A stretch of DNA of 64,000 nt from Malacoraja senta. Taxonomy: Eukaryota. The stretch covers positions 6,822,001 to 6,886,000 of the forward strand of contig CM075991.1 of NCBI GenBank assembly GCA_038087875.1, in the 5' to 3' direction. How positions within the stretch are numbered: position 1 is the first letter of the stretch; each line of letters starts with the position of its first letter. Below are positions 3,403-63,912 of this stretch, piece by piece. The notes below the pieces were generated by a model. It had not been told where the DNA came from. It made no database searches and saw only the letters and a program-made list of their open reading frames with translations. The translations under genes were made by a program, and so were the position numbers.

Positions 3403-4886
3403 TGCGCAGCGCCCAGTGAACTATTTCAACGTAGATTGTTTCAAGAAAGAATAATTTTGAGGACAAGACTGAATTATTACCCATCGAATCTTCGTCACAA
3501 ACCCAATGCTTCAAGATCACGTTCAGTACTTTTGAGCGATTGATAACTGAAACGTGATAAGTGAACCGTACGGTGCTGAAGACCATTTGGCCCATCGACT
3601 GTGGACTGGCTCTTCCAAGCAACGTCCCATTCAGGAGACCCACTACCCAGATCTTTTTTTTTCCCAGAGAACAGTTATTTTATTTTTTTAAAGTATTTAT
3701 CCGTTTTCTTTCTGACGAAAAAAACGATTGTATTTGTTTCTAGCCTCCTTACAATCACAACAAAATGTGAGGCAAATGAAAAACCTCCTCAGTGACTCTG
3801 GGCCTTATGTTACCAATCACCCTGAACCTGTGGTCTCTGTGATTGCCCTGCTGGTGGAAGCGTTCCGCTTTATTTGTTGTAAAGAATCCCCCTTAAAGCG
3901 TTGAATACGTTTACTAAATATATTCGTAGCCTTTTGCTTTACCGATAATAATCAGTATTTTCTACATCTCTATATAGCCATGTTCACGTGAAAGGGTTTA
4001 GATGGATCCAGGTTTTAGTCTGAAAACGGGTCTCGACCTGAAACCTATTCCTTTTCTCCAGAGATTCTGCCTGACCCGCTGAGTTACTCCAGCATTTTCT
4101 ATTTATCTTCGGTGTAATCCGATGTAAACTGCAGTTCTCTCCTATACGAGGTTTAGACGGATATGGGCAAAGCGCGGGCAAATAGGTCCAGTTTAAAGAG
4201 GCATATTGGTCACATTTGCCCGCGTTAGACCCATATCGCTCGAAGCAAAACTTAGTCACTAAAACAAAACTAAACACTCCACCGTTTAAAGACGAATCTG
4301 TCCATTTCCCTCCACAGATGCTGTCTGACCTGCCGAGTTCCTCCAGCTCTTTGTATAGGAAGGAACTGCAGATGCTAGTTTAAACCGAAGATAGACACAA
4401 AAAGCTGGAGTAACTCAGCGGGCCAGGCAGCATCTCTGGAGTCTGAAGAAGGGTCTCGACTCGAAACGTCACATATTAATTTTCTCCAGAGATGCTATCT
4501 GACTCGCTGAGTTACTCTGGGTTTTTGTGTCTATACTAATGCACTTAGATTTTTTTTTGCTCGAAATCTTTTCCACGCCGATGATTAACTTTCCCAGCTT
4601 TTTCTGTTGACGCTACCCCCCCCCGCCGACAACCCCCCCCCCCCCGCAGGAAAATGCACCGAGTAAACAGAATCTTAGAAAACAAGAAGTGTAGTCAGCA
4701 CATATTACATTCAAAGTAGAGGCAGGAACAAGCTATTCCAGTTTATGTTTTTCCTCCACCTTTCAATTACATGGTGGTAGATTATATTGTACCTCCGCGC
4801 TGTTTCCCCGTTGCAATCCCGTATCCTTGATTCTCTTAATGCGTCGAATCTAAAAATACTCTTTCCATCATTCCTCTTCTCCAAAT

Positions 4887-5201
4887 TAGACACAAAAAGC
4901 TGGAGTAACTCAGCGGGACAGGCAGCATCTCTGGAGAGAAGGAATGGGTGAAGTTTCGGGTGGAGACCCTTCATCAGACTGGTTAGCGATAAGGGAAACG
5001 AGAGATAAAGATCAATGGATGATCACTTCAGATCACCGTCTATATCTCTCGTTTCCCTTATCCCTAACCAGTCTGAAGAAGGGTATTGACTAGAAACGTC
5101 ACCCATTCCTTCTCTCCAGAGATGCTGCCTGTCCCGCTGAGTTACTCCAGCTTTTTGTGTCTATCTTCGATTTAAACCAGCATCTGCAGTTCCTTCTTAC
5201 A
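4887..5201. mobile_element. Penelope-derived inverted-pair (hairpin) element, family A
   Basis: Left arm is the reverse complement of the right arm, with extra internal inverted sequence (cgtttcccttat). Flanked by cattcctcttc(t/c)cca at 4869-4883 and 5202-5216. Confidence 0.8.
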
Positions 5202-5339
5202 CATTCCTCTTCCCCAGCCCCTTTAACTACCCGGCCCTTGCCAAATATTTGTAAATGGTGAAATGTTAAAGCGATGAGATACAGATACTTGAATATTTGT
5301 ACGGATGATCAAATACTACAAGAGGGCGCAAAAAATAAT

Positions 5340-5745
5340 CAAAAAGGCTGCCAGGAATCCGGCCTTTATATCCAAGGTGCTGCAGGTAGACAAAGCCCCG
5401 GTTGGACCACACCTGTGGAACAAAGAGCAGATCTAGGCGCAAAGAGCAGAGTTGGGAATGACATATTGTCCCTGGAAGGACTTCAGTACAGATTTCCAGA
5501 ATGGTATTCGGATCCCGAAGGTTCAATTACCAGGAGAGATGCCACAAACTGGAGGCCTCTTCAATTCAGAATAATTTGGTTTACTTTATCGATTGATATG
5601 GTAAATAGAGGGAAGTTGTCGCCGCTGGTTGGGGAAGACGAGGCAGACTGGTCAAAAAAACAAAGCTAGGGTGAAGTTAGAAAACACTTCCTTCCACACG
5701 CTGATAGTCAGAGTTCTCATCAACAGACAATTGTTTAGTTTAAGA
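5340..5745 (+). mobile_element. Old decayed CR1 LINE fragment
   Basis: Residual RPHL and DILSLEGLQYRF motifs match the CR1 ORF2 C-terminus of younger copies in this window. Confidence 0.5.
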
Positions 5746-5924
5746 TAGAAACAAATTGCTGGAGTAACTCAGCGGGACAGGCAGCATGTCTGGAGACAAG
5801 GAATGGGTAAGGGTTCAGGTCGAGGCCCTTCATCAGAAGATTCTGACTAAAATGGTTTAGTTCATTGTCACGTGTACCGAGGTACAGTGAAAAGCTATTG
5901 CTGTGTCAGCGGAAAGGCAATACG

Positions 5925-6195
5925 TGTAGGAAGGAACTGCAGATGCTGGTTTAAACCGAAGGTAGACACAAAATGCTGGAGTAACTCAGCGGGACAGGCA
6001 GCATCTCTGGAGAGAAGGAATGGGTGACGTTTCGGATCGAGACCCTGAAGAAGGGTCTGAAGAAGGGTCTCGACCCGAAACGTCACCCATTACTTCTATG
6101 CGGAGATGTTGCGTGTCCTGCTGAGTAACGTCGCGTAATTTGCGTGCCAAGGACACGTAAGTGGGACAGGCCCTTTACTCCAGCTTTTTGTGTAC
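5925..6195. mobile_element. Family A inverted-pair element carrying a Harbinger MITE right end, nested in a Rex1-type 3' tail
   Basis: Arms gtaggaaggaactgcagatgct... and ...ttactccagc. The end aagtgggacaggccct+TTA interrupts gagTTActcc. Flanks match the ttgtcacgtgtaccgaggtacagtgaaaagc family. Confidence 0.7.
6053..6088 (+). ncRNA. Minimal type I hammerhead ribozyme motif (best-formed copy)
   Basis: GGGT-CTGAAGA-A-GGGTC(TC)GACCC-GAAA-CGTC-ACCC: core CUGANGA/GAAA, helix II 5 bp, helix I GGGU/ACCC, palindromic ACGU helix III, GUC cleavage triplet. Confidence 0.7.
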
Positions 6196-8379
6196 TATCA
6201 GCGGAAAGACTAAAGATGATTCCAATCGAGATGTCCACAGTTTAGAGATGGAACCACATAATTGATGGTGGTTAATTTGACTTTGAAAAGCGACCAGCAC
6301 TGTTCAGTGCTAGGTCATTATCGCGTTGAATGGTGGATCAGTCTCGACGGACCAAACGGACGCATATCTTTTTTGTGTGTTCCAGTGATATAAAACCGGC
6401 TTGACGGAGAATCGTTATTGTACATGAACAGAAATCAGCGCGGTAAATAAAGCGGACGGGAGATCTCATTATATGTCTTACCGCGACTCGGGGCTAGAGA
6501 GTTCGCCTGTCACCTGGTCTCATAACGCAGCCACATTGGGGCCATTCCTTAAGTAAATAGTATTTTGGCGAGCTGAAACGCTGAACTTGCCAGGAATGTC
6601 TATATACTTCAAAAATAATAATTTGGATATTAAAACATACGGTTGTACTTTATCTCCGAGACGGTTTCTCGACTGGAAACGGCACCTATCCATCTTCTCC
6701 AGAGATGCTGCCTGACTTAACCCAGCACGTTGTGTCCCTTTGTGTAAACCAGCATCTGCAGTTCCTTGTTTCTACGGTTTCAGGAGTTCGATTGTGGACG
6801 AAAACGCTGTATGCTCTCTCTTTCTCTCTCTCTCCCAGAGTGCCTTTTACAACCCCTATCTGTTCTGCTAATCATCATCGGATCGTGAATAATTCTCGCT
6901 GCCGCTCTGGACTGAATGTAAGGTCGCGTAATTTGCGTGCCAAGGACACGTAAGTGGGACAGGCCCTTTACTCCAGCTTTTTGTGTACTATCAGCGGAAA
7001 GACTAAAGATGATTCTCCAATAATTTTTACACTATTTTTTTATTCTCCAGAGATGCTGCTTGACCCGCTTTTTTTGTGTCTATCTTCGGTTTAAACCAGC
7101 ATCTGAAGTTCTGACCTACACATGATTCCTTGCTGCGTTGAATCATAGACCTTTTTCTTCGCTCCATAGATGCTGCCTCGCACGCTGAGTTTCTCCAGCA
7201 TTTTTATCTATCTTGCTGCGTTGAAAATGCTTTCGTTCCCACCTCTTCTGCAATGTTTAGTTTCATGCACACCTCTGACTACAGTGTTAGAAGATTTCCA
7301 CATTCAGGGCCAAATGGGGATAATTTATTGGAACATTTATTGACAACGAGACCACCACAAAACTCTCTCTGACCCGTGACCCCATGAATAAATCCTTCAG
7401 TTTTATAGATTCACCGAAGTCCAAAGTATGTGAAATGTACTGTCCATAAACCAGCATCTGCATTCCTTCCTACAAGTTGAGTGTGCCACGAGTGTTTTTC
7501 TTTTGCTAGATGCACTTTGTACCTGCGGCTTTGATTAGATTTCGGAGTTGAATACGTCTCTTTGCAATAGATTGACTCAGGAGCTGACCACCTCGGCATG
7601 AAGTTTGTACTCTCCTGTGGCACAGTTCAAAAGTCAAGTATCAGTTGAATGGGGCCAATGTATCCCCGGCGGTGAGCGGCTCAGCGCTGAGCCCACAATA
7701 CAACCGGCCGCCCCGATGTTCACAAGCGTACAAATGATGCAGTCTGCACAATGTTACACAGATGTGGTCAAATAAGTCATGTGATATCAGTTCATTTGTG
7801 CTCGATGAAGCTCACAGATCACTCACGCCAAGAGATACTGCGAGCAGTGCTAACACCGACTCGCGTTCACGGGTTTTAATATAGATTAAACTGCAGATCG
7901 GCCTCTACCTCGCAAAGGCCCGATAGGGTTATCGTGTTATCAATCGATGCTATTTGAAACGTGAAATATATATTAAAAATGACTTTAATCCTTCCGAGGA
8001 ACTGTTCTTCCTCGCCGTGTAGTGATATTCGCTGAATCAGTGAATACAAATCTCTCTGTGATTTTAAGCAGTCGGTTTTGGTTTAATCCCCATATCCTGT
8101 TCCCTTACAGTGATTACTTACAGGACATGAACCAACATTTCCCTTGTTTTTATTTGTTTTTTAATTTTATTCAAGCTTGCTGATTTATTGTCGCGGCGTT
8201 GAATATTCATGGCAGTGGCAAAGCGTTTGTTTAATGGGCGACCTGTTATTATGAACCATGTTGTACCATTATTCTAATTATTAATTCACTGTATATTCCA
8301 TAGGAACATAATCAAGCGAAAGCACCTGGAAAATCATATAATATATATATGTATATGTGTGTGTATGTATATGTACGTG

Positions 8380-8508
<129 letters not shown>

Positions 8509-8560
8509 TGGTATGTGTATATAACATAAGTGGCGAATCATCTCGACAATTAATAATTAA

Positions 8561-8657
8561 CAGTCCTAAGAAGGGTCTCAACGCGGACGTCACCTATTCA
8601 TTTTCACCAGAGATGCTGCTTGACCCGCTGAGTTACTGCAGCATTTTGTGTCTATCT
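8561..8657 (+). mobile_element. Single-arm Penelope-derived repeat with TSD
   Basis: TSD tcgacaattaataa at 8543-8556 and 8658-8671. Confidence 0.75.
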
Positions 8658-9410
8658 TCGACAATTAATAAACCATGTTAATCAAAGAAATGACAGGCAA
8701 AAGTGCGTGTCATTAAGAAATAACTTAATGTGAAAAATAAGTATACTTTGTCTTCCAATTTCACTTAAAATAACCAGAACCCAACATGGATATTAAAAAT
8801 ATAGGCCAGTTTAACCGGACGCTTTATTTTACGGAGTGAAGTGGTCCCGATTATTTTCGGACAGCACGAATAGCGTGTACTATGTGAAAATGACAATGCG
8901 GGTCCATTAACGTCTTACGACCGAGGCTTTAAATGTTTTCTTTCATTGCTAACTTAACGATATAATATAAATTCTGACATGCAATCCTCGCATTACCGAC
9001 AGGTTAACTTGTTCGTACAGTGTATTGTGTTACATGAGGGCGCCGTGGAGTCTTTAATGGATCGCTCATCTGACACCAGTTGAGCGAGAAGGATTTTGCA
9101 AGGCACTGTTACCGAGCTGAGATCCGCCCGGTTAATTTATTACAGGCTTGCGAAAATCAGCAGCCAATAAATTCAATCACATTAGTAACCCGACGCTGCC
9201 GTAATGATGATTACCGCAGGTTAGCACGATGTCCACTATAAATAAAGGTACTTCATAATATTTGGTCTCGTAAAAATAAGACGAGGTGTCACCCCCATCC
9301 GTTCCATTGATTTATAGGGCAGGGAGAGTTTGTTCAAAGACCTTGTAAAATAGCGTGTACTCAATGATATAGAGCGAATATTCGTGAATACTGTACACTG
9401 TTTATATTAG

Positions 9411-9610
9411 NNNNNNNNNNNNNNNNNNNNNNNNNNNNNNNNNNNNNNNNNNNNNNNNNNNNNNNNNNNNNNNNNNNNNNNNNNNNNNNNNNNNNNNNNN
9501 NNNNNNNNNNNNNNNNNNNNNNNNNNNNNNNNNNNNNNNNNNNNNNNNNNNNNNNNNNNNNNNNNNNNNNNNNNNNNNNNNNNNNNNNNNNNNNNNNNNN
9601 NNNNNNNNNN
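9411..9610. other. Assembly gap (200 N)
   Basis: Run of n. Confidence 1.
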
Positions 9611-9946
9611 ATTATTGGGCTCAGCCGACCAGATGTAATTCCATTCAAAGTGTGTTACATATTAAAGACCCAAATGCATTTTACATTTACAAAGCTTGCA
9701 TTAATTATCCCGGTTTTATACTGAACTCTCTGCACTTCCGTTGGACTTTTTCTGAAGCTTAACACAAGAAAGAGCTCGGGTTTATTTACCGTTTTACCAG
9801 GTGCCCCCCCCCCCCTCCCCTGTTTTTAAAATGAAACATGATTTGCGATAGAGTTCAGGGAGGGCGTGGGGGGTTACAACTGCAAGATTCCCAGTCTCTA
9901 CTGTATCCTGTTTATGGGTCTTTTCCCGCTGCCACTGTCTCCTTAC

Positions 9947-10109
9947 CGCACTTTTCCTGCTGACTGGAACCGTTCTTTGATTCCAAACGCGTTGCTTCTC
10001 GCGAACGGCGCAGCTTCTGTTCTGGGCAGTCCAGGTCGGTAGTCTCAAGTTTGTGAATTTCCATTCGAAGAATTTAATCCTACAAACGGCGAACAGCGAA
10101 GTTTAGAAG
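9947..10109 (-). CDS. Candidate 163-nt exon containing an ATG (MEIHKLETTDLDCPEQKLRRSREATRLESKNGSSQQEKC, phase 1)
   Basis: On the minus strand: (TC)n pyrimidine tract + CAG acceptor at 10112-10110, in-frame stops, ATG at 10064, 39 open codons +1 nt, donor GCG|GTAAGG at 9946. Confidence 0.4.
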
Positions 10110-10113
10110 CTGG

Positions 10114-10144
<31 letters not shown>

Positions 10145-10316
10145 GAGAACATCACCGGCCGGTCTAATGCTCAACGAAACGGGTCGAAAAATGATACTCC
10201 GGTCTCTCTGTACAATCTTTCACAGACACCCAATGACATTTTCACGTGCGTTCAGATCTTTCTTTTTTTTTAACCCCAACTTACATTTATTTAAGACACA
10301 AGACCAAATAATACAG

Positions 10317-10413
10317 TCCGAGGAAGGGTCTCGACCCGAAATGTCACCCATTCCTTCTTCCCAGAGATGCTGCCTCTCCCGCTGAGTTACTCCGGCATTC
10401 TGTGTCTCTTCCT
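10317..10413 (+). mobile_element. Single-arm Penelope-derived repeat with TSD
   Basis: TSD ccaaataatacag at 10304-10316 and 10414-10426. Confidence 0.75.
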
Positions 10414-11138
10414 CCAAATAATACAGGCGATTGGTTTCTCTTGAACGGTTTCCGTTATTTTCCTGGAAGCTGAGTTTATCCAGTGTTGAAAACGACTGCT
10501 GTTTCAGAAACGTTTAAAGAGGTAATCACAGACTTGGAAATAATTCTCCCACCATCCAGGTACCGTCAGAATATGCTGACACTGACAGCGTGTTTGGATT
10601 TGTTTGGCGGTTACTTTATGTTTTTGTGTTGGAATATTCTTCATCTTTAATATTGAAATCGGTAACACGACACCTACAAGACGCGTTTCTATGGTTTCGA
10701 ATCTGGTGTAAGTCTTCGCAAAACCAAACAGTTTCTTTCCTGCAAGATCGGTAAATACTTGACAGTCTTGTCAGTCGTAAATAGAACTGCATCTCCTTCG
10801 CTATTGTGTACATCTGTGCAGAAAGACGGCTAGTGTACAGAAGCAAGGGCCTACCCGTGGAATACACCGTGCAAGATATTAACCAGCATCGATGCATCCG
10901 ATTGTTGCCTTGACATATCTAGGTCTATCCAACATCAACATTCCACGCGGCTTATTTCACATCTGCAATCTAACCAAAACTCAAAGAGCGACGATGGCTT
11001 TGAGGTTTGCCTTCAGAATCATACCGCTACTGCGAATAATCTTCTGCTTGAGCAGTTTTGGGCAATTTACCAGATACATTGTTGTTTAAACATGTGAACG
11101 GCGATGTCGTCGCTGAAGGTGGATTACCAGCCAGGATA

Positions 11139-11277
11139 GGGGGGGGGGCATTTAAGATTGTCAAAGTGTTAAGAACTGAATGAACACGAGAGTGATTCTG
11201 GGGGGGGGGGGGGGGGGGGCATTTAAGATTGTCAAAGTGTTAAGAACTGAATGAACACGAGAGTGATTCTGGGGGGG
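11139..11277. repeat. Exact tandem duplication of a ~50-bp unit bounded by poly-G tracts
   Basis: catttaagattg...gtgattct occurs twice, separated by a long G run. Confidence 0.9.
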
Positions 11278-11859
11278 AAAACGTTTTGGAATTAATAACT
11301 ATCTCCTGGACTCCCAAGTGGTTTGGCGAGTTTACAAGTGAACAGGAATCAGGGTGAGACGAGATCGCATTCGGCATTCTTGATGGGTTGTCCTATCTGG
11401 AAGTATCCATGTATGGTTGTATGCCTACTTTGGCAGGATGAAGAAAGACGGAGTCAAGGACCACTTCAACACTAATGTCACTGAAACCTCAACAAATAAT
11501 TGCAGCCTTCGGGACAGAAATACTGCAGACTTTCATTAAAACGCAGTTTGATGTTCAGACTCTTTTCGCGTGGAATACCCGGGTTCAGTATATCCGACAA
11601 TGCACACAATGTATAACACCTACCCGAATCCGACTCTCAACTCAATTTATACACTTTGATTTTTTTTTAAATAATGTGACATCAACCTAAAATTAATATT
11701 ATTTTTTGGACTCGTATCAATTATTAAAGTCACATTTGCTGTTGAAAAAGGCTCGATTTTTACAATGTAATACCCTGGATATTTACCAGATGATTGGACT
11801 GGTTTTTGGCAAACAGAAAGGGTGGAGGTCTGAATGGGGTGGGGACTGGAAGAGACATT

Positions 11860-12200
11860 TGCATGGCGCATCGCGAATTAATTTTGGGGATTTGACTTGA
11901 TTAAGATATCTGTCAGTTCGCAATTCGGAAAACTAATTATGGGACTCGGAGGCAAGAGGGTAGCGCTAGGGCAGATGGAATTACTGTTCAGTGTTTGCTG
12001 ATAATAATTTGCGCTTTCAGACCCGGATTTGCATATATTGCATCTGTCAATTGGCTCTCTCTCCGTTATTGAAAAATAACTTTGAACTGCATCGTGTTTC
12101 CTAATATGGGAATCGGGCATAAATTACAAGCCGCCTTTCATTTTCAAGTCATATTTGTTGTATAAAGAGAGCAGCAGCATTAATATTAATAGGACTGATG
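11860..12200. promoter_or_regulatory. Enhancer/CNE-like unique sequence
   Basis: Octamer ATTTGCAT at 12027-12034, CArG box CCTAATATGG at 12100-12109, several TAAT/ATTA and TGTCA motifs, repeat-free. Conservation not tested. Confidence 0.3.
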
Positions 12201-12355
12201 AAGTTGTCTAATGTCAGTGCCGAAGGTCTCGTGACCAAGAGCTACGATACATTTTTGCTGACGGCTCACTAGTAAGGGCGGTGTAAAAAATGCACGTTTC
12301 CCAGATAAAAGGGGATTATCTAAATCAGAATGGATAGAAGTCTATCCGTCAATAT

Positions 12356-12495
12356 AGTCAAGTCGAGTCACATTTATTTATATAGCACATTTAAAAAACA
12401 ACTCTCGTTGGCCAAAGTGCTTTACATTTGTTATAAGAATAGCATAAACAAAACAAACTACATACATATATACATATAGCCCTCACTCAGAGGGC
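12356..12495 (-). mobile_element. L2-type LINE/SINE 3' tail
   Basis: The minus strand reads tgtaaagcactttgg...aatgtgctatataaataaatgtgact, a typical L2-clade terminus. Confidence 0.55.
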
Positions 12496-13934
12496 TACAT
12501 GTATATATCACATATATCATAATATAGATCGCTGCGAAGGCGGGATACATCTACCAATCGATCTAAGTGCTGGAGTACATCTTAGCTAGCATCTCTGGCG
12601 AAAAATGATGGGTGGCTTTTCGGGTATGGACCCTTCTTCAGACTGCTGCCTGACCCACTGAGTTACTCAAGCACTTTGTGTCTATCTCTGGTGTAAACCA
12701 GCTATATCTCTCGTTTCCCTTTCCCGCGACTTTCAGTCTGAAGAAGGGTCTCGACCTGAAACATTGCCCATCCCTTCCCTCCAGAGATGCTGCCCGTCCC
12801 GCTGAGTTACTCCAGCTTTTTGTGTCTATCTTCAGCATTTGCTTTGTTTCTATCATCCAACCACATTCCCGTCTCTTCGATATTCGCACCTGTCTTTATT
12901 TCTAAAGAAACAATGCCAGACGAGGAAGCTGCATCTTAGTCTGACCGAGGAAGGGTCTCGACCCGAAATGTCACTGATTCCTTTTCTCCAGAGATGCTGT
13001 CTGACCCGCTGAGTTACTCCAGCATTTTGTGTCTATCTTCTGTTTAAACCAGCAACTGCAGTTCCTTCCTACACATCTTACCGAAATAGTGCAGACTGGA
13101 AAAAAAAGAAGCCGAATCAATATAATTGTTACACTTTGAAATTTTCCATGCAATTGACTGGTTATGTCGAAACATGTACGTAAAGCGAATGGAATAAATT
13201 AGTTTCGGGATCATTGAAATAGGAGTGCTGATTAAAGTTATATTTATTCTCGCGGAAGCTACAGTTTCCTAACAAAACCAGAGCCGGGACAAATATCTGG
13301 AACTGAGTATATAATTTCTGACGGAGTCTGGCAGGTTTTACTCGCTCCTTGGGAACTTCGAATGCAGGAACTTCGAATGCAGGCCACTCAAGGGCACAGA
13401 CAGCGGCTAATTTGGTGGTTTCCAGCCTCCTGCGCAGTTCCTGTCATTTTTGAGAGGGAGTGAAGGCTATATCCCAAGTCTCAAAACACTGAGTTCTTCA
13501 TTTGACCTGCAATGACCTTGAGAATGTGACTTGTAATTGTTTCTGAAGATCCAATCCCGGTAAACTGGATTTAATCTTGCTGGTGTATTCTGGTACTTTT
13601 TGCAACCAGAGAATTGAACAGTTTTAACACTTGTCGGTATAAGAAAAGGATCGGGGCAACGGGCCAGGGGGCAAAGATGGGGTGGGGTGGTCAATAAGGA
13701 AGGAAGTTCCATATTTTCCTCTTAATTGTTTAGACTGCGGAAGAGTTAAATCAGTGCCAGAAGTAAGTCTTGCCCCTAGTCCCACGAGATTCATTAAGAA
13801 AAACTTGATTGTTAAATTAATGAAATATAATAAAGTGACTAAAAGTTCTAGAGTAACTCAACGGGGTCTTAAATTAATGTAATAGAATAAAACGGACTCG
13901 AAGTTCTGGAGCAACTCAAGGGGTCAGGCAACGT

Positions 13935-17407: not shown

Positions 17408-18006
17408 AAACAGAAGGTACAAGAATCTCAGATTAACCTCTCTGCGTTCTCTGAAGTATTTTCTGATGCAGATGCTGAAAGTTTAGCTCAGTGGGATACA
17501 CAGAAAATAAATGTTCTCGCCTCTTCCAATGTTAGCACCAATACCAATACAAAGTGATGACATTCCTCAAGAATGCACGATAGAAACACCTTAATATTAT
17601 ATCAGTGTCTTAATATTATAGCGACAAAGGCACTTAGCAGTTCAGATAGCAACGATCGAGAGGGAAGCGTGAAGTTTCAATTCGATAGCCTTTCATTATA
17701 AGCTCTCACCTGATTTTAAGCACATCACAGTAGGCAATGGTAATTCGGAAGTATCTCATTCACTTTTAAAGTTCACGAATGGGTGGGCTGCTGTGACCGT
17801 TATTGCAACATGAACCAGGCAAGAGTCTATTTTAAAGAAACATTGCATCGGGAAAGCTGTTGTTTGGAATCCTAGGATCGGTTGCTCACAGAATTAGGCC
17901 ATTCGGCCCATTCAAAGCGTACCGGTTCCTTTTTGAACAATCCTCTCAGTCCCATTCTCCAGCTCTACACATGTAACCTTTCCAATTATCTCCCCCAAAT
18001 CTCCAC

Positions 18007-54674: not shown

Positions 54675-54700
54675 TATAAACCAGCATCTGCAGTCATCAT

Positions 54701-54903
54701 GTGTTGGAAGGAACTGCAGATGCTGGTTTACACCGAAGATAGACACAAAATGCTGGAGTAACTCAGCGGGACAGGCAGCATCTCTGGATAGATGGAATGG
54801 GTGACTTTTCAGGTCTGAAGAAAGGTCTCGACCTGAAACGTCACCCGTTCCTTCTATCCAGAGATGCTGCCTGTCCCGCTGAGTTACTCCAGCATTTTGT
54901 GTC
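54701..54903. mobile_element. Family A inverted-pair element with perfect 16-bp TSD
   Basis: catctgcagtcatcat at 54685-54700 and 54904-54919; hammerhead core at 54815-54842. Confidence 0.88.
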
Positions 54904-55488
54904 CATCTGCAGTCATCATACTGTTATCTCTTTTAGTTTCTCTAACATAGCTCAGATATTGTCTTAGATTTTCTCTCCATTATCTCAACGCCTTTGTTTA
55001 CTTCTCTGGAATTCAGAGGCTGGATGCCTTGATTTGGTCCATACTGCAGTAATAAATCTCATAGTTCCCTCTCTTTCAGTTCACAACCTTGTGCTATTTG
55101 TATTCATACTGAGACTAATTTACCGTTCCATTTCGAATTTTATTTATTACTATTATTGCTTATGATATGATAGGAAAGATGGCAACCGGTTGCATTATTA
55201 AACTAAATAACCTTTGGGAGACGGGGCATTTTTACTTTCTGAACACCAGTCTTCTTCAGGCAAGTCTCACAGTTCAACAATGTGTACATGGGGAGCAGAT
55301 TCCACGGCGTATACCTCTTAGAGGTGAACATGTCCATTCCATAAGCTACATATTCCATTGAACTGAGTGGCCATAACCAAGTGTAACCAGTGATGCTAAC
55401 CCATGAGAAATGGAAAATCTCCCTACGATCTGGAGATTGTTCAAGAGCATGGATTCCTGATCACAGCTCAATGGAACATGACCTCAGA

Positions 55489-58400
55489 GTGCCTCCGAGA
55501 TGGATTCTTAGAACAGCTTGTACTGGAGCCTACCAGGCAGAAGGCTATTCTGGATTTAGTGTTGTGTAATGAACCGGATTTGATAAGGGAACTCAAGGTA
55601 AAGGAGTCATTAGGAGGTAGTGACCACAATATGATAAGTTTTAATCTGCAATTTGAGAGGGAGAAGGTAAAATCGGAAGTGTCAGTATTGCAGTTGAACA
55701 AAGGGGTCTATGGAGGCATGAGGGAGGAGCTGGCCAAAGTTTACTGGAAAAGGACCCGAGCAGAGATGACGGTGGAACAGCAATGGCAGGTATTTCTGGG
55801 AATAATCCAGATGATGCAGGATCATTTCATTCCAAAGAGGAAGAAAGATTCTAAAGGGGAGTAAGAGGCGACCATGGCTGACAAAGGAAGTCAAGGACAG
55901 TATAAAAATAAAAGAAGATATATAACATAGCAAAGATGAGCGGGAAGCCAGAAGATTGGGACACTTTTAATGATCAACAGAAGGTAACTAAAAAGGCAAT
56001 ACGAGGAGAAAAGATGAAGTACGATGGTACGCTAGCCAAAAATATAAAGGAGGATAGTAAAAGCTTCTTTATGTATGTGAAGAGTTAAAAATTAGTTAAG
56101 ACGTGGGTCCCTTGAAGACAGACACAGGTGAATTTATTATGGGGAACAAGGAAATGGCAGATGAGTTGAATAGGCACTTTGGTTCTGTTGTATATTGCTC
56201 GTTCTAAGCTTCCCCCCAGACTAGTTTCAGTCAAAAATCACTGAGTCACGCACTTACGCATCTAATCTTTATTTTGACAAAACACAATACGGTTCACACT
56301 ACTGTACCTAACCACCGCGGGTTCGATCCTCGTATCTGCCTGATCAAGCCCTCTTGGCCTCGCTCAAACAGAGACACTCCAGTCCTAAGTGCTCTCCCAG
56401 AAGATCGACACAGGACCTTGTGGTAGAGGACTTTTATAGGTCCCCGAACCTCGAGAGGCCGAACCACGTGGGGGTGGTCTCTTTACAATTACAGATATCA
56501 ATTAACCCCATACATGACAGACATTTACCTAACCCAATAATATAGTGGCTAATACATTGTATTCAGTGTTTCTCAAAGGAAACGAACATCGCAACATGTG
56601 CCCTGATATGCAAGAAAACCAGACAAGGCTCAATACTTAATCCAATCAACATCAAGCAAAGTAAAGCTTTGCAACATTATTTACAAGGTGTATATCTGGT
56701 TTGCATTCATCCAATCCATTCTATGCATTTTGCACCTAATTGTCAGGATCTGCAGATGTTCCCATTTTCTTCCTGCAGCTCTGATCTAGGCTCTAGACAA
56801 ACTGGCACCACTCTGCAGCTTGTCTCATTTCTACAGAGAGCACTTTTAAATTGACCAAATGGCCTAGCAGCCCAGAAGCCTTTACTCAATTTTAGGGTCC
56901 TGGCCTCTCCAATTTGACCAGGATTAACACTGTCTTCACTAAGGAAGACACAAACAATCTCCCAGATGTACTAGGGGACAGAGGACCTTGGGTGATGGAA
57001 GAACTGAAGGAAATTCACATTAGTCAGGAAATGGTGTTGGGCAGGCTGATGGGATTGAAGGCTGATAAATCCCCAGGTCCTGATGGTCTGCATCCCAGGG
57101 TATGGTGGCTCTAGAAATCGTGGACGCATTGGTGATCATTTTCCAATGTTCTATAGATTCTGGATCAGTTCCTGTGGATTGGAGCGTAGCTAATATTATC
57201 CCACTTTTCAAGAAAGGAGGGAGAGGGAAAGCAGGGAATTATAGACCAGTTAGCCTGACATCAGTGGTGGGGAAGATGCCAGAGTCGATTATTAAAGATG
57301 TAATAGCAGCACATTTGGATAGCAGTAACAGGATCAGTCCAAGTCAGCATGGATTTACGAAGGGGAAATCATGCTTGATAAATCTTCTGGAATTTTTTGT
57401 GAATGTAACAAGTAAAATGGACGAGGGAGAGCCAGTGGATGTAGTGTACATGGACTTTCAGAAAGCCTTTGATAAGATCCCACACAGGAGATTAATGGGC
57501 AAAATTAGAGCACATGGTTTTGGCGGTAGGGTATTGACATGGATAGAAAATTGGTTGGCAGACAGGAAACAAAGAGTAGGGATTAACGGGTCCCTTTCAG
57601 AATGGCAGGCAATGACGTGAGGTGCCGCAAGGCGCGGTACTAGGACCGCAGACCACAGCTATTTACAATATACAGTACATGAATGATTTAGATGAAGGAA
57701 TTAAAAGTAACACTAGCAAATTTGCTGATGACACAAAGCTGGGTGGCAGTGTGAACTGTGAAGAGGATGCTATGAGGATGCAGGGTGACTTGGACAGGTT
57801 GGGTGAGTGGGCAGATGCATGGCAGATGCAGTATAATGTGGATAAATGTGAGGTTATCGACATTGGTGGCAAGAACGGTAAGGCAGATTATTATCTGAAT
57901 GGTGTCAGGTTAGCAAAAGGGGAAGTACAACGAGATCTGGGTGTCCTTGTACATCAGTCACTGAAAGTAAGCATGCAGGTACAACAGGCAGTGAAGAAAG
58001 CTAATGACAGGCCTTCATAATGACAGGAGCTGTGTATAGGACCAAAGAGGTCCTTCTGCAGTTGTACAGGACCCTGGTGAGACCACACCTGGAGTATTGT
58101 GTGCAGTTTTGGTCTCCTAATTTGAGGAAGGACATTGTTCCTATTGAGGGAGTGCAGCGTAGGTTCACATGGTTAATTCCTGGGATGGTAGGACTGTCAT
58201 ATGATGAAAGAATGGAGCAACTGGGCTTGTATTCACTGTAATTTAGAAGGATGAGAGGATATCTGATAGAAACATATAAAATTATTAAGGGATTGGACAC
58301 GCTAGATGCAGGAAACATGTTCCCGATGTTTGGGGAGTCCTGAACCAGGGGCCACAGTTTAAGAATAAGGGGTAGGCCATTTAGAACTGAAATGGGAAAA

Positions 58401-58655
58401 ACTTTTTCACACAGAAAGTTGTGAATTTGTGGAATTCTCTGCCTCAGAAGGCAGTGGAGGCCGACTCACTGGATGCGTTCAAAAGAGAGTTAGACAGAGC
58501 TCTTAGGGCTAGCGGAATCAAGGGGTGTGGGAAGAAGGCAGGAACGGGGTACTGATTGTGGATGATCAGCCATGATCACATTGAATGGCGGTGCTGGCAC
58601 GAAAGGCCGAATGGCCTTCTCCTGCACCTATTGTCTATGTATCTATGTATCTATG
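55489..58655 (+). mobile_element. CR1 LINE (APE end + RT + tail), frameshifted, split by a solo LTR
   Basis: LDLVL, GSDHN, KSPGPDG, NYRPVSLTS, DFQKAFD, KFADDTKL; (TATCTATG)n tail. Confidence 0.95.
56189..56929 (-). mobile_element. Solo LTR (741 bp)
   Basis: TG...CA ends, 4-bp TSD ctgt (56185-88, 56930-33). Removing it restores CR1 HFGSVFTKED. TATAAAA (~56435) and AATAAA (~56270) on the minus strand. Confidence 0.88.
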
Positions 58656-58728
58656 ACTATATTGTATGTAATTGTTGTATGTAATTGTTGTATGTAATTG
58701 TTTGTAATTGTATTTGTTAGTCTGTGTT

Positions 58729-58983
58729 CAAGATGGCGGTCGGAGGGGAGAGTGGACGCTGGCGTTAAATTGCCGCTGCTCTCTCCTCAAGTTGTGCTTC
58801 TGATTTTCTTTTTTTTGTGTTTTTGGAAGGAATTCTGTCCCTGATTTATGTATTGGTCTTTATAACCTATTTTTTTTAAATTCTGATTATACGTTTTCTA
58901 TAAATCTCTGTATGGTGTCCTTGAGACCTCGGTATAAGGCGCCCGTAAATAAAATCCATTATTATTATTATTATTATTATTAT
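58729..58983 (+). mobile_element. Short non-autonomous element with YY1-like head and L2-type tail
   Basis: Starts CAAGATGGCGG; ends tgtccttgag..aaggcgcccgtaaataaaat(ATT)n. Confidence 0.6.
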
Positions 58984-59317
58984 GTGTGTCAAGTTAGAGC
59001 CTGGCTTGCAATCTGCCAGAGCATTACAATCAGGTGGGTAAATGCTGTTTCCACCCAGCTTTTGTGTCAATGTGAGGCAGGCTACATCCTGAAAAAGAAT
59101 CAGTCAAAATTATAAAGACCAAATTTGTACTGAAGTCCTTTGTGGAAGCCCTGTAAGTTTGGATATCTCTGTGCTTCCAAACTCATTGCTTTCATACACA
59201 TCCACGTTAATATCCCAGATTAGTCTAGTAGATTTGACAATCCCCAGATTTTCTGATATTAAATTAATGAGTCAGATCCAAAAAGTAATTTATGGGATTT
59301 GTGGAATATTTGAGCGC

Positions 59318-59617
59318 AGGCAACATGGTAGTGCAGTTGCTAGAGCTGTTTGCCTCACTGCACCAGAGACCCAGGTTCCATCCTGACCTTGGGTACTGTC
59401 CGCGTAAAGTTTGCACATTCTCACTGTGACCATGTGGGTTTCCCCTGGGTGCTCCGGTTTCCTCCCACATCCCAAAGACATGCCTGTCTGTTGGATTGGC
59501 ATCTGCAAATTGCCTCTAGTCTGTTGGGAGTGGATAAGTGGGATAACATAGAACTAGTGTGAACAGGTCAGTATGGCCTCAGTCAGCCAAAGGGCCTGTT
59601 TCCATACAGTATCTCTA
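59318..59617 (+). mobile_element. V-SINE
   Basis: V-domain and CR1-like tail. Confidence 0.8.
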
Positions 59618-60647
59618 AGAAGGAAACAATGTGTGTAGAACCAGAAGCAGGCCTCCCAACGACATGAAAATTAAAAACAAAAAATTGTCTTCAAGCAAAG
59701 CTGAGTGCAAAGCAATGACACATGGGATGTAGAGGCCATTTCTAATGGGTTGTGTAATTGAGTTTTTACGTACATTAAAAAAGGAAGTATTTCTACTTGT
59801 TTTGTTTCTAAATATTCTTACCTTTTTAATAACTTTTCTTTGATTCAAATCCTACCCATTAGAGGCATATAACCCAGAGTGAAAATACAATAACTTCTGT
59901 GGAGTTACATAAGCGCATAGATATTGCAGGAAGAGGCATTCTCTGCCACCCTCCAGAAAGGGTGTACAGTGCTGGAGTTAATACAAAAACTGTTTAACGT
60001 CAATTCAGTGTGTATCATTTCAGCTGATCAATCTTCTGAAAGGTGAGACCACATTGCTTATTTACATCCATGTAAATCTGATCTTTAATTGCTTACAAAA
60101 AACAACAATATACCACAAGCTTAGCAAAGCAATAAACAGCTGTTGCCGGAATGTGGCACTCTGTGAAGTTTGCTTCATATTTCCCTATGACCTCCCATCT
60201 TATTTATAGCCAGAATGAGAAGTGTTCCAGAGATTCAGGTTCACCGCACATGTGTCCCAATCAATCATTTGAACTAAATTTATATCCCTTTTGCCCGCTA
60301 TCGGTGTCAGTCCGCACTATTGGGAATTTCTAACCTTGACGATCGCGGGATATCATTCCCATTAATCCGTCCTTAAGACTGCAGCTTATCATGTTGTCAT
60401 TAAGAGACTGTAAAGTCATCCATCTACCTTCTCTATTGATTTGAGGCATGGCTTATATATTTATGAGCAACCATTTTGCTCTCCCAGCAGACCGAATGAA
60501 GCACTTGTACTTATCTTTCAGTTTAAGAATGCAAATGCAAGCAGTGTACACTGTGTACCCAAGTTGATCTGGACAGGTTGTTCAATGTGCTGAAGGAAAT
60601 GTCTGAAAAGTTGGGGAGTTTGCAAATATATAGTTGGAACTTGGATG

Positions 60648-60933
60648 AGTTTAGTTTAGTTTAGTTCAGAGATGTGGATACAGGCCCCACGGCCCATCAG
60701 TCCATGTCGACCAGTGATCACCCATTCACTACTTCTATCCTACACACAAGAGCCAATTTATAGAACCCAATTAACCTGCAACCCCGTACATCTTTGGGAT
60801 GTGGGAGGAAACTGGAGGAAGCTTACATGGTCACAGGGAGAACGTAGAAACACGGTAAAGATAGCACCCGTAGTCAGGATCGAACCCGGGTCTCTGCTGC
60901 TGTAAGGCAGCAACTCTACCGCTGCGCCACTGT
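60648..60933 (-). mobile_element. V-SINE
   Basis: Reverse-strand A/B boxes, (CTAAA)n tail. Confidence 0.85.
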
Positions 60934-61587
60934 GTTGTGGAATAGGTTTTCAGGAAAGTTCTTTTCTTAATTCATTCCTTGGATGTGCTGTCCCTCACTT
61001 TCCCTTGAACAAAGTACTTTGCTGTGCCAGTTCAGAGGGCCATTAAGTGCCAGATGTATTTTGGCATGGACCTAGATTGCCACACGAACCCTTACCTAGG
61101 TAAGGATGGCAGGTCTCCGATAATGGCTTTTATTAAACCACATGGATTTTTACAACAGTATTGTAGTTTCATGAACATTACTGGCATCCTTTGCCCTTAA
61201 GATTTTTATTTAATTAATTGAGTAAATTTAAATTCCCCAGCAACCAGCGTGATATTGCACTCGTGACTATATCTAAAAAAAATACGAGCAGGGATCTTTC
61301 AAACCTGTTGTGCCAATCAATAGCTGATCCACAGCTGCAATATCATACATGATCCTTCACTTCCCGATAGTTTACATGGAGTATTAGCTCCAGTCAGGCT
61401 TCTGATATACAGGCTGAAGAAAAGCAAATAACCGACAGATGAGTTCTGGAAGTGAGCAAGTAAAGCGAAATGAGATTTAAAAAAAAACTTTCTTGAACAT
61501 TATAAAGTTCTGAGGCAAGCATGATGAAAGAAAGAAAGGGATCCTCAAAGCACTGAGTAACTAATGTATTATTGTTCAAATCATGCT

Positions 61588-61726
61588 TCTTCTTCTTGCG
61601 TATGGCATGCACAGCCTAAAGTTGTAGGACAACTTGTTCTATTTGATCTTATTTGATTGTGCACGCCAGGTTGATTGCATTCGTTGAAACAGGGCGGACC
61701 AGGAGAAGGTTGCAATCTCCCACCCC
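61588..61726 (-). mobile_element. HDV-ribozyme-headed short retroposon, copy 2 (full length)
   Basis: TSD aaatcatgct (61578-87, 61728-37); (AAG)n tail; no pol III A/B boxes seen. Confidence 0.85.
61673..61726 (-). ncRNA. Minimal HDV-like (CPEB3-type) ribozyme fold
   Basis: P1 GGGGUGG/CCGCCCU with G1-U wobble, P2 GAUUGCA/UGCAAUC, P3 ACC/GGU, 7-nt L3, J4/2 CGAA. Confidence 0.8.
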
Positions 61727-61755
61727 AAAATCATGCTGTCATTAAGGGACACCAA

Positions 61756-62044
61756 TTCTGAACCTTCTGAATTTTGTAGTCGGCAGGGCAGTACTCTGCA
61801 TATCGCCAACTTGGACAATTTAACTTTTTTTTTTTATCAAGCCAATTAAACAAGCCAATTAACCTACAAACCTGTACGTCTTTGGATTGTGGGAGGAAAC
61901 CGAAGATCTCGGAGAAAACCCACACAGATCACGGGGAGAACGTACAAACTCCATGCAGACAGCACCCGTAGTCGGGATCGAACCCGGGTCTCTGGCGCTG
62001 CATTTTGCTGTAAGGCAGCAACTCTACCGCTGTGCCACCGTGAC
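61756..62044 (-). mobile_element. Full-length V-SINE with alternative tail
   Basis: tRNA head + V-domain + the same tail as 49523-49590. Confidence 0.85.
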
Positions 62045-62135
62045 TGCCCAATTTGCACCCTATCAGAGCTTGCTAACTTGCTAAGAAGATTGTTGACCTT
62101 AATTCTATCTTCCTCTTTGGTATTTCAGCGTACCG

Positions 62136-62433
62136 TTTAGTTTACTTTAGAGATACAGCCTGGAAACAGGCCCTTCTGCTCCCTGAGTCCATGCTGACCA
62201 GTGATCCCCGCACCCTAACGCTATCCCACACACACACTAGGGACAATTTACAATTATACAATTAATTAACCTACAAACCTGTACGTGTTTGGAATGTGGG
62301 AGGAAACCGGAGCACTCAGAGAAAACCCACAGGAGAATATACAAACTCCGTACAGACAGCACCCATAGTCAGGATGAACCCGAGTCTCTGGCGCTGTAAT
62401 GCAGAAACTCTACCGCTGTGCCACCGTGCCGCC
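62136..62433 (-). mobile_element. V-SINE
   Basis: Standard CR1-like tail. Confidence 0.85.
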
Positions 62434-62594
62434 CATATGCTGACAATCTGGAAATGATGCTGAGAGAGTGTTGAGCTTTCGGAGGTGTCATCATTTTGAT
62501 GAGATACTGAACAAAGACCATTCTCCCTTTCCTGAAGAAGGGTCCCGACCCGAAACGTCACCTATCCTTTTCCTCCGGAGATGCTGCCTGACCC

Positions 62595-62822
62595 ATTTGC
62601 TGGTCCAGATCACGAACAGATCATTTATGTCGACACAAATTCCGGCTCCCTCGATGTAATGAACCAGGAAAGGGAAGACATCCATGATCGGCACACGTGG
62701 GTTAAACATGTACACCATAATCACAAGTTCCTTCTGGGTTGGAAGGGTGAAGATGGGCTGCTCCGCCAGCAGGTAGAGTGGAGTTTCATTCCTTTGCTAC
62801 TTGCCGCGTGTTTGAAAGTAAT
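62595..62822 (-). mobile_element. Fragment resembling Tx1/L1-clade ORF1 (ZCCHC3-like)
   Basis: PIFTLPTQKELVIMVYMFNPRVPIMDVFPFLVHYIEG...DLFVIWTSK resembles, from memory, the V.MYNP.VP..D...FL..Y...D.FGIWT motif. Confidence 0.55.
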
Positions 62823-62894
62823 GTTCTCCAGTGATGCTGCCCGACCTGCTGAGTTACTTCAGCACTTTGTGCCTTTTTTTTTCCTTTTCTAACT

Positions 62895-63912
62895 CTTGGA
62901 TGTAAAAGATCTCCTGGCACTGTTTCAAAAAATGAACCGAATGTTGTTCCGTGTGCACCTGACAATTTATCCTGAACAGCTACTTTCTAAAGAATATCCA
63001 GTTTCTTATCGAAGGCAGACACAAAATGCTGGAGTAACTCAGCAGGACAGGCAGCATCTCTGGAGAGAAGGAATGGGTGACGTTTTGGGTCGAGACCCTT
63101 CTTCAGACTGGTGTCAGGGGAGTGGGCGGAACAGAGATAGAATGTAGTCAGAGACTGGTCGGAGAACTGGGAAGGGGAAGGGGATGGAGAGAGAGGGACA
63201 GCAAGGGCTATTTGAAGTTAGAGAAGTTAATGTTCATACCGCTGGGGTGTAAGCTACCCAAGCGAAATATGAGGTACAATTTGTGCTGGACCTCATTCTG
63301 ACAATGGAGGAGGCCCAGGACAGAGAGGTCAGATTGGGACTGGGAGGGGGGAGTTCAAGTGCTGGGCCAACGGGAGATCAGGTAGGTTAAGGCGGACTGA
63401 GCGGAGGTGTTCAGCGAAACGATCACCGAGCCTGCGCTTGGTCTTGCCGATGTACGGAAGTTGACACCTGGAACAGCGGATACAGTAGATGAGGTTGGAG
63501 GAGGTGCAAGTGAACCTCTGCCTCACCTGAAAAGGCTGTCGGGGTCCTTGGATGGGCGTGGGAAAGGGACAAGTGTTGCATCTCCTGCGGTTGCAGGGGA
63601 AAGTACCTGAGGAGGGGGTGGTTTGGGTGGGAAGGGATGAGTTGACCAGGGAGTTGCGAAGGGAATGGTCTCTGCAGAAAGCAGAAAGGGGTGGAGATGG
63701 GAAGATGTGACCAGTAGTGGGATCCTGTTGGAGGTGGCGAAAGTGTTGGACCCAAAACGTCACCCATTCCTGCTCTCCAGTGATGCTGCCTGTCCTGCCG
63801 AGTTACTCCAGCATTTTGTATCTACCTTCAATTTAAACCAGCATCTGCAGTTCTTTCCTACACTTCCAGTTTCTTATCATCAGTTTGTGGGACTTTGCAT
63901 CATGCAAAACAT
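62895..63912 (+). mobile_element. Deu-domain SINE split by a Penelope-like insertion
   Basis: ggatgtaaaagatctcctggcactgtttc...aatttatcc before the insertion and tttgtgggactttgc after it. Confidence 0.55.
63011..63864 (-). mobile_element. Penelope-like element: GIY-YIG endonuclease fragment + 3' arm, with an inverted second arm
   Basis: C..RRCNTC...FTCTSSNLIYCIRCSRCQLPYIGKTKRRLGDRFAEH; 14-bp TSD tccagtttcttatc at 62997-63010 and 63865-63878. Confidence 0.92.

What the first reader, a model, noticed from the sequence alone, without database searches (positions are those of the whole stretch)
4443..63108. Dozens of dispersed repeats carry a minimal hammerhead that should need a dimer
Seen: the most abundant repeat here contains CTGAAGA-A-GGGTC-NN-GACCC-GAAA-CGTC (e.g. 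4443, 6057, 54815 and 62532 on plus; 25559-25586 on minus). Family B has CTGAAGA-A-GGGTT-TC-GG(C/T)CC-GAAA-CGTT (~14155-14210). Helix II is kept through wobble or compensatory changes and the loop varies (TC/CC/AC). Helix III is the loop-less palindrome ACGU, which cannot fold within one copy. Known: Penelope-like elements carry minimal hammerheads reported to cleave as dimers, and an extra nucleotide after A9 is tolerated. Inference: long transcripts crossing this region in either direction contain many potential half-ribozymes that could pair in cis. Helix I is only 2-4 bp in most copies, so many may be inactive.
Basis: partly seen in the sequence, partly recalled or inferred. Interest (0 to 1): 0.7.

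Follow-up and report, generated by a model that had tools for sequence, protein, structure and literature searches.

The report
Decaying Penelope-retroelement hammerheads in skate DNA
About 9% of this window, likely from a skate, consists of short copies of the end of a Penelope-like jumping gene that carries a known type of minimal hammerhead ribozyme motif; only 6 of 61 copies keep the whole motif, most of those are predicted to be locked in hairpins, and they are likely ordinary transposon debris.

Summary
The motif is real: 7 descriptor hits against 0.04 by chance. It sits in a ~95/135-nt module with 61 copies; 34 span the motif, 10 keep every core base, 6 keep the whole fold. The module is the pseudo-LTR end plus 'tail' of a Neptune-type Penelope-like element (PLE). 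One 14-nt target duplication encloses a GIY-YIG remnant, the motif and an inverted tailed copy. Head-to-head arms with one tail and a target duplication are the published PLE signature. Core bases decay as fast as flanks (28/337 vs 91/1164, p=0.73), largely at CpG; only one helix II change is double-sided. The cis-dimer idea fares badly: 3 of 6 intact motifs have helix II probability 0.0 in context, and sense-antisense duplexes (-95 to -174 kcal/mol) far outweigh the double hammerhead (+4 to -20). RNA reads from a coded organism cover the module equally on both strands, with no pile-up of ends at the cut site. Minimal PLE hammerheads were described in 2014, and this scan noted the same thing in four other shark-like genomes. 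Left open: copies start just 5' of the core, not at the cut site, and the tail sits on the shorter arm (6 of 7).

The parts
63005..63864 (-). One PLE insertion: inverted short arm with tail, 5'-truncated endonuclease remnant, pseudo-LTR with hammerhead motif; flanked by a 14-nt target duplication
63208..63745 (-). Broken 3' end of the PLE ORF: C-X4-C-X2-C linker and GIY-YIG endonuclease; open frame 63332-63742, then frameshifted to a stop at 63210-63208
   Evidence: (GIY-YIG E=0.0017, below the Pfam cut-off)
63111..63207 (-). Pyrimidine-rich pseudo-LTR stretch ending in CAG just before helix I
63005..63110 (-). Module copy attached to the ORF remnant; C3 at 63106; core broken by G12A at a CpG; no tail
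63741..63864 (+). Inverted, 5'-truncated arm of the same insertion, with the ~35-nt tail
4443..4470 (+). Complete motif (helix I 2 bp) in the loop of a 47-bp hairpin made by the head-to-head unit 4353-4535
6057..6084 (+). Complete motif (helix I 4 bp, by a 12-nt local duplication); predicted to be buried in the hairpin of unit 5922-6129
14155..14182 (-). Complete family-B motif (U17); predicted to be buried in the palindrome 13966-14313, which has a 9-nt target duplication and a later insertion in its left arm
25559..25586 (-). Complete motif (helix I 2 bp), solo copy with upstream pyrimidine tract and tail
54815..54842 (+). Motif with A-U in place of G10.1-C11.1; predicted to be buried in unit 54698-54905, which has a 16-nt target duplication inside another copy's tail
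62532..62559 (+). Core, helix II and palindrome intact, no helix I
4875..5203 (.). Head-to-head unit, both arms with upstream pseudo-LTR sequence, tail on one arm, 11-nt target duplication
47779..47964 (.). Head-to-head unit nested in an older copy, 8-nt target duplication
34708..35436 (+). Second, more diverged PLE remnant: GIY-YIG-like stretch followed by a module copy (C3 at 35335, core broken)
27273..27959 (+). Third, weak PLE remnant followed by a module copy (C3 at 27873, core broken)
4017..64000 (.). Span of all 61 module copies (33 plus, 28 minus)

Best explanation
The repeat is the hammerhead-bearing terminal repeat and tail of a likely Neptune-type Penelope-like retroelement, present as 61 short, mostly broken copies that are likely inactive. 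Shown: the link to a GIY-YIG ORF, head-to-head arms inside one target duplication, one tail per unit, decay of the core at the rate of the flank. Inferred mechanism: the element's endonuclease nicks both target strands; reverse transcription starts at one of two sites about 90 and 130 nt downstream of C3 (without or with the tail), runs through the uncut hammerhead and usually ends 0-4 bases beyond its 5' edge; a second cDNA or a fold-back makes the inverted arm, joined through 2-7 bases of microhomology. The ribozyme likely mattered in the source element's tandem transcript, where two pseudo-LTRs would form a double hammerhead through the ACGU palindrome, probably with help from the element's protein. 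After insertion the copies decay neutrally; in host transcripts they would mainly form long sense-antisense hairpins rather than cut.
For: GIY-YIG remnant runs into the motif; 48 homologues at E<=0.001, best identities 74% and 72% to two skate proteins, 66% to whale shark and Mobula; 4 of 6 homologues scanned have RVT_1 upstream of GIY-YIG; conserved Cys linker. 9 of 14 adjacent pairs closer than 20 bases are head-to-head; paired arms are 90% alike against 78% for all pairs (0 of 10000 random draws reach it); tail on exactly one arm in 11 of 12 pairs, never on both. Target duplications of 8-16 nt in 4 of 9 units and 9 nt at a tenth. Same architecture in PMC3846280 and PMC8557442; two RT start sites bounding the tail, a protein-assisted ribozyme and uncut RNA as template in PMC11167929. 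Core mismatches 28/337 vs flank 91/1164 (p=0.73); 10 core-intact copies seen, 12.7 +/- 2.5 expected under neutral decay; 46 of 62 CpG mismatches are deamination-type. Folding. Reads: same 5' and 3' boundaries in two DNA-like and two RNA-like runs; no pile-up of ends.
Against: No RT of this element lies in the window, so the clade rests on the linker and homologues; the window's GIY-YIG score is below the Pfam cut-off. No activity was measured. One window cannot exclude a young, active subset elsewhere in the genome, which is not held. The sharp 5' boundary (34 of 61 copies start within model columns 1-7) is not what random truncation gives and is unexplained. In RNA run X23 the ratio of the two read directions falls from 1.04 to 0.92 across the cut site, which would fit slight cleavage as well as read geometry. 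The folding model ignores tertiary contacts, magnesium and proteins. The upstream sequence differs among the longer copies, so several source families are pooled.
Confidence: 0.82

Rival explanations
1. The short copies come from a non-autonomous master (SINE-like or retrozyme-like unit of about 92 nt, from just 5' of the core to the proximal end) that borrows the PLE enzyme, rather than from truncation of full-length PLE RNA. This changes the origin of the copies, not their identity or their decay.
For: 34 of 61 copies start at columns 1-7; loose ends pile at 63108-63110 and 63017-63019 in the runs laid; summed contig depth on the module is 15-fold or more above any ORF bin in X8 and X1 (not a copy number); direct joints going back 87-94 bases exist in DNA runs. 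Copies starting at the motif mostly lack the tail (21 of 28 vs 12 of 27, p=0.029). The preprint 10.64898/2026.07.22.740005 derives retrozymes from PLE pseudo-LTRs and finds them in one chondrichthyan.
Against: No tandem of two complete motifs in the window; no circular permutation: 1 of 34 copies has module 3' sequence upstream, and that one is a partial tandem; the direct joints are flagged 'between: not known'; 5-6 copies run on into pseudo-LTR or ORF; only 3 of 61 copies start at the cut site.
Confidence: 0.25
2. One reading: dispersed copies act as half-ribozymes that pair in cis within long host transcripts and cut them.
For: On paper a plus transcript holds 4 enzyme halves and 10 substrate halves, a minus transcript 3 and 11. 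The module is abundant in polyA RNA on both strands (20213 of 7335232 records in X23). The 4443 motif lies in an open loop, and the junction type that leaves it open is the only kind of inverted joint among the 15 joints shown. Small drop in one read direction across the cut site.
Against: 6 of 7 enzyme halves have an opposite-orientation copy within 93 bases. Double-hammerhead energies are +4.1 to -20.3 kcal/mol and in all 6 complete motifs worse than two separate monomers; neighbour duplexes are -95 to -174. A strand-swapped dimer of the 4443 unit is 11.5 kcal/mol above two monomers. No selection on the core. No end pile-up. Published PLE minimal hammerheads cleave weakly even as dimers (PMC4209133); 1 of 9 Xenopus dimers cleaved in the preprint. 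No host exon found by Pfam in 149 of 233 ORFs of 70 aa or more, so a crossing transcript is not shown.
Confidence: 0.06
3. The motif is a chance or vestigial look-alike and never cleaved even in the source element.
For: Helix I is only 2 bp in the ORF-linked copy; no Rfam match; covariation is weak; the test for core constancy between subfamily majority lines is not significant (1 of 11 vs 24 of 79 columns, p=0.13).
Against: All core positions, the extra base, G10.1-C11.1 and the palindrome coincide in the place where PLEs carry hammerheads. The differences between the three well-sampled subfamilies (A1, A2, B) inside the motif fall on permissive positions (loop, U.G wobble, H17, 1.1 wobble); the one core difference comes from a 3-copy group. 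N7 is the most variable base of CUGANGA, narrowly (0.23 vs 0.21 for U4).
Confidence: 0.05

Closest known systems
Minimal hammerheads (min-HHR) in pseudo-LTRs of metazoan Penelope-like elements (Cervera and De la Pena 2014, PMC4209133)
   Same: Type I layout, no helix III loop, palindromic 15.2-16.2, one extra base after A9, G10.1-C11.1, short helix I, thousands of mostly solo copies, some close pairs on opposite strands.
   Different: Helix II 4 bp (7-8 in S. mansoni) and helix I 2 bp (4-5 there; 2 in D. virilis). Cartilaginous fishes are not named in the text parts I read or in the 2 supplementary files searched (file 1 was not searchable).
EN+ PLEs of the Neptune type: partial tandem/inverted structure with tail (PMC8557442, PMC3846280)
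   Same: RT-Cys linker-GIY-YIG order in homologues, inverted 5'-truncated copy overlapping the direct repeat, 30-40-nt tail at one end, 8-16-nt target duplications, insertion into own copies.
   Different: Most units here are reduced to two ~100-nt arms; 5' ends cluster at the ribozyme edge; the tail favours the shorter arm.
Poseidon of Anolis (PAc; PMC11167929)
   Same: Hammerhead about 100 nt upstream of two RT start sites that bound the tail; no RNA-seq ends at the cut site; uncut RNA is the template.
   Different: Poseidon clade; whether this element's ORF starts inside the ribozyme was not determined.
Non-LTR retrozymes (bioRxiv 10.64898/2026.07.22.740005)
   Same: PLE pseudo-LTR-derived, type I hammerhead, many monomers.
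   Different: Defined by head-to-tail tandems with two complete ribozymes; none in this window, where head-to-head pairs dominate.

Membership tests
PLE minimal hammerhead (min-HHR) | Core CUGANGA...GAAA...UH | tested here: met
   Majority line and 10 of 34 spanning copies
PLE minimal hammerhead (min-HHR) | Extra base between A9 and 10.1 | tested here: met
   A in 36 of 37 copies
PLE minimal hammerhead (min-HHR) | G10.1-C11.1 closing helix II | tested here: met
   G-C in 24 of 34, G.U in 6, A-U in 1, unpaired in 3
PLE minimal hammerhead (min-HHR) | Palindromic 15.2-16.2 without loop 3 | tested here: met
   CG is the majority; decays as a CpG, 20 mismatches in 66 cells
PLE minimal hammerhead (min-HHR) | Located in the pseudo-LTR downstream of a GIY-YIG ORF | tested here: met
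   63106, 35335, weakly 27873
PLE minimal hammerhead (min-HHR) | Cleaves as dimer, not as monomer | not testable with these tools
   Energy model disfavours the dimer; reads show no end pile-up but are a weak test
EN+ PLE, Neptune type | RT followed by C-terminal GIY-YIG in one ORF | tested here: met
   In homologues: 4 of 6 scanned show RVT_1 then GIY-YIG; the window holds only the endonuclease part
EN+ PLE, Neptune type | CX2-5CxxC linker between RT and endonuclease | tested here: met
   C-X4-C-X2-C in the remnant; feature as given in PMC8557442, shared with Nematis
EN+ PLE, Neptune type | Inverted 5'-truncated copy, 30-40-nt tail at one end, target duplication | tested here: met
EN+ PLE, Neptune type | Placement in the Neptune clade on an RT tree | not tested
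   No RT of this element in the window; no reference set at hand
Non-LTR retrozyme | Head-to-tail tandem with two consecutive complete hammerheads | tested here: not met
   None in the window; direct joints in relatives' DNA are inconclusive
Non-LTR retrozyme | Circular RNA of unit length | tested here: inconclusive
   Back-going joints have 0-6 reads each in X23 and also stand in DNA runs
Rfam hammerhead families | Score at or above the gathering threshold | tested here: not met
   0 matches in the window

The most novel reading that the evidence does not exclude
Young copies of this very abundant module cut host pre-mRNAs in skates: head-to-head units whose short arm starts downstream of the ribozyme leave it in an open loop, and two such units swap arms, with protein help, into an active double hammerhead, giving a genome-wide layer of transcript cleavage. 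A milder novelty is that the sharp 5' boundary and the tail-on-the-short-arm rule record two RT subunits copying one RNA, the tail-less one leading.
Probability: 0.07. Interest if true: 0.7.

Novelty: new member of a known kind. Interest (0 to 1): 0.2.

Why it matters
As it stands it is a correct catch of a known RNA class in one more vertebrate group. Its use is as material: copy number is so high (61 in 64 kb) that insertion anatomy can be counted, which bears on the open question of how PLEs make inverted arms and a one-sided tail, and on whether PLE hammerheads cut at all in vivo. It also implies a dense source of long double-stranded RNA in host transcripts, like inverted Alu pairs (inference). 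It would matter much more only if cleavage of host RNA were shown.

Tried and rejected
Own-genome search: none held, so all statistics rest on one window. Rfam: no hit. Compensatory selection among copies: pair-keeping against pair- or core-breaking changes are 11 vs 6 at the C11.1-G12 CpG (p=0.33), 7 vs 3 at non-CpG helix II sites (plus 3 at G10.1), 6 vs 12 at the palindrome; no consistent bias. Cleavage as the source of the copies' 5' ends: 3 of 61 start at the cut site, two of them in one local tandem. Circular permutation: not seen. Splicing to the CAG before helix I, as in D. virilis Penelope: the pyrimidine tract and AG are there in 5 longer copies, but 17 of 34 copies keep AGT or CAGT, no shared upstream exon is seen, and no such joint is among the 15 shown of 1181; unresolved. 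The one GT..AG joint shown (63110-63181, run X15 only, 2 contigs) reads on the antisense strand; not interpreted. A-to-I editing cannot be judged without matched DNA. Host gene: none by Pfam among 149 of 233 ORFs; short exons would be missed. Target duplications: none of 8 nt or more in 5 of 9 units tried. Lunse et al. (RNA Biol 14:1499) is not held; seen only as cited in PMC6765202. Five paper searches on PLE anatomy or cartilaginous fishes listed no paper on hammerheads in skate or shark repeats; the library lacks most subscription journals, and Repbase was not available. The preprint's supplements are closed and may list this family.
Full report
Observation. The motif is in the sequence. 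A profile built from 11 window copies finds 61 copies of a longer module, 33 on plus and 28 on minus, 9.0% of the window; very short fragments such as 24370 are missed. Of the 61, 34 span the motif, 10 of these keep all core bases, 6 also keep helix II and a Watson-Crick palindrome, and 5 also have a helix I of at least 2 bp. One of the five (54815) has A-U for G10.1-C11.1. Rfam has no match at gathering score.

What it is. At 63005-63864 a single insertion, bounded by a 14-nt target duplication, holds a short plus-strand arm with a ~35-nt tail, then on the minus strand a broken ORF end, a pyrimidine-rich stretch, the motif and the rest of the module. The ORF piece has a weak GIY-YIG hit (E=0.0017, below cut-off) and 48 longer homologues, with the best identities to skate proteins (74%, 72%) and 59-66% to most shark and ray hits. 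Of 6 homologues scanned, 4 show RVT_1 upstream of GIY-YIG, and a C-X4-C-X2-C linker precedes the endonuclease, which PMC8557442 gives as the mark of Neptune and Nematis PLEs (passages). Two further remnants lead into module copies at 35335 and 27873. The host is therefore likely a skate (inference); no genome is held.

Anatomy of the copies. Of 14 adjacent pairs closer than 20 bases, 9 are head-to-head with tails outward. In the 12 head-to-head pairs within 800 bases the arms are 90% alike against 78% for all 1770 pairs, five of the close junctions overlap by 2-7 bases, and the tail is on exactly one arm in 11 and on both in none; in 3 pairs the tail-less arm is cut short, leaving 8 of 9. Four of 9 units tested have target duplications of 8-16 nt (about 3% of random pairs share 8 or more), and a tenth has 9 nt (read), so both arms arrive in one event. 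This is the published PLE layout: inverted pseudo-LTR overlapping the direct one, optional 31-bp tail at one end, 8-10-bp duplication, palindromes at the junction (PMC3846280, passages). PMC11167929 (parts 1-2 of 4) shows for an Anolis PLE that both strands are nicked and extended, that two RT start sites bound the tail, that uncut RNA is the main template, that the hammerhead cuts only with the protein, and that RNA-seq reads do not end at the cut. Here too copies run through the uncut motif: 34 of 61 start within columns 1-7 and 3 at the cut site.

Is it under selection? Among the 34 spanning copies, non-CpG core bases mismatch at 28/337 and downstream bases at 91/1164 after dropping 6 subfamily-diagnostic columns (p=0.73; 128/1341 with them, p=0.53). 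Four motif-critical bases lie in CpGs and mismatch at 33/134 against 11/60 for a downstream CpG. Neutral decay predicts 12.7 +/- 2.5 core-intact copies; 10 are seen. The wobbles in helix II are C-to-T changes with no significant excess over breaking changes, and there is one both-sided change. Between subfamily majority lines the core differs at 1 of 11 columns against 24 of 79 elsewhere (p=0.13; 27 of 61 copies were unassigned, and the one core difference is from a 3-copy group); differences inside the motif among the three larger groups fall on permissive sites. This fits constraint on source elements and none on copies, but the first half is not significant in one window.

Could copies pair in cis? 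By nearest-neighbour energies the double hammerhead scores +4.1 to -20.3 kcal/mol for the 6 complete motifs, always worse than two monomers, whereas six neighbouring opposite-orientation pairs give duplexes of -95 to -174. With 250 bases of context helix II has probability 0.0 at 6057, 14182 and 54815 and 0.08-0.12 at 4443, 25586 and 62532. Six of 7 intact enzyme halves have an opposite copy within 93 bases. The best case is 4443, whose partner arm starts downstream of the ribozyme and leaves it in a loop; a strand-swapped dimer of that unit is still 11.5 kcal/mol above two monomers. The model omits tertiary contacts and protein. PMC4209133 (parts 1-2 of 4; 2 supplementary files searched, one not searchable) found no cleavage of a monomer and low cleavage of dimers and trimers; the preprint 10.64898/2026.07.22.740005 (parts 1-3 of 5; supplements closed) found 1 of 9 dimers active. 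Lunse et al. was seen only as cited in PMC6765202 (passages). PMC6155905 (passages) adds nothing on sharks.

Public reads. Fourteen of 23 listed runs, from six coded organisms, hold half or more of the words of 62900-63900. I laid 4 of them on 62960-63740 at 85% likeness. Loose ends fall at the same boundaries as in the window. In the raw polyA run X23 (organism not shown to be the window's; 137 of 20213 laid reads are 99% alike) the module is covered 7169 to 6872 in the two directions, while the ORF part is skewed in all 23 bins, so the library keeps some strand information. No place shows a pile-up of starts or ends; fragmented polyA libraries are a weak test. The direction ratio slides from 1.04 to 0.92 across the cut site, which caps any loss at roughly a tenth and is not evidence of cleavage. 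Inverted joints (module columns 46-49 to 2-5) and direct joints about 92 bases back both stand in DNA runs; only 15 of 1181 joints were shown.

Verdict. A new member of a known kind: minimal hammerheads in PLE pseudo-LTRs, here as dense debris. Four earlier notes of this scan reached the same class in other shark-like genomes; they are unchecked AI notes, came after my reading was stated, and are not counted as support. Shown: motif, PLE link, insertion anatomy, neutral decay in this window. Inferred: Neptune clade, the two-start priming scheme, a processing role in the source element, inactivity of the copies. Open: why copies end at the ribozyme's 5' edge, and why the tail favours the shorter arm (6 of 7, too few to be sure). 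Interest 0.2.

Noticed in passing
window: 12 head-to-head pairs, e.g. 4353-4535, 43802-44014, 47779-47964, 54698-54905, 63005-63864: The tail lies on exactly one arm in 11 of 12 pairs (8 of 9 where both arms reach the end region) and on the more 5'-truncated arm in 6 of 7 informative pairs. One tail per unit is published; I did not find the short-arm bias in the passages read.
   Followed up: partly
window: 34 of 61 copies; reads at 63108-63110: Copies begin 0-4 bases 5' of C3, where the pseudo-LTR turns into a pyrimidine tract; cause unknown (RNA start, RT drop-off or non-autonomous master).
   Followed up: partly
window 63122-63740, run X23: In all 23 bins over the ORF and upstream pseudo-LTR one read direction is in excess (about 1.1- to 3.7-fold), which in the usual stranded protocol means antisense to the element; the module itself is 1:1.
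   Followed up: no
window 17137-17411: Family-B local tandem (61-nt period) whose units begin exactly at the base after the predicted cut site; one event only.
   Followed up: partly
window 47724-48047, 54698-54905, 4305-4442: New units inserted inside older copies or their tails, suggesting a preference for own sequence.
   Followed up: partly
window 36244-38709 (-), 53621-54673 (-): An 822-aa and a 351-aa open frame of a non-LTR reverse transcriptase (RVT_1 plus ALKBH8_N-like stretch); the longer looks recent.
   Followed up: no
window 40665-41552 (-): Tc1-type transposase frame of 296 aa.
   Followed up: no
window 19543-19935, 23261-24265, 55400-58020 (+): Further non-LTR (CR1-like, label from my own knowledge) fragments.
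   Followed up: no
window 62494-62796 (-): Weak hit to the ZCCHC3 second RNA-binding domain (E=1.4e-4, below cut-off), possibly a decayed retroelement ORF1.
   Followed up: no
one search hits P0007, P0009, P0011, P0012, P0031: Several annotated shark, ray and skate proteins with ordinary names contain this PLE endonuclease stretch: likely mis-annotation or exonisation.
   Followed up: no
window about 9400-9600: Assembly gap; the window holds 200 N in all.
   Followed up: no
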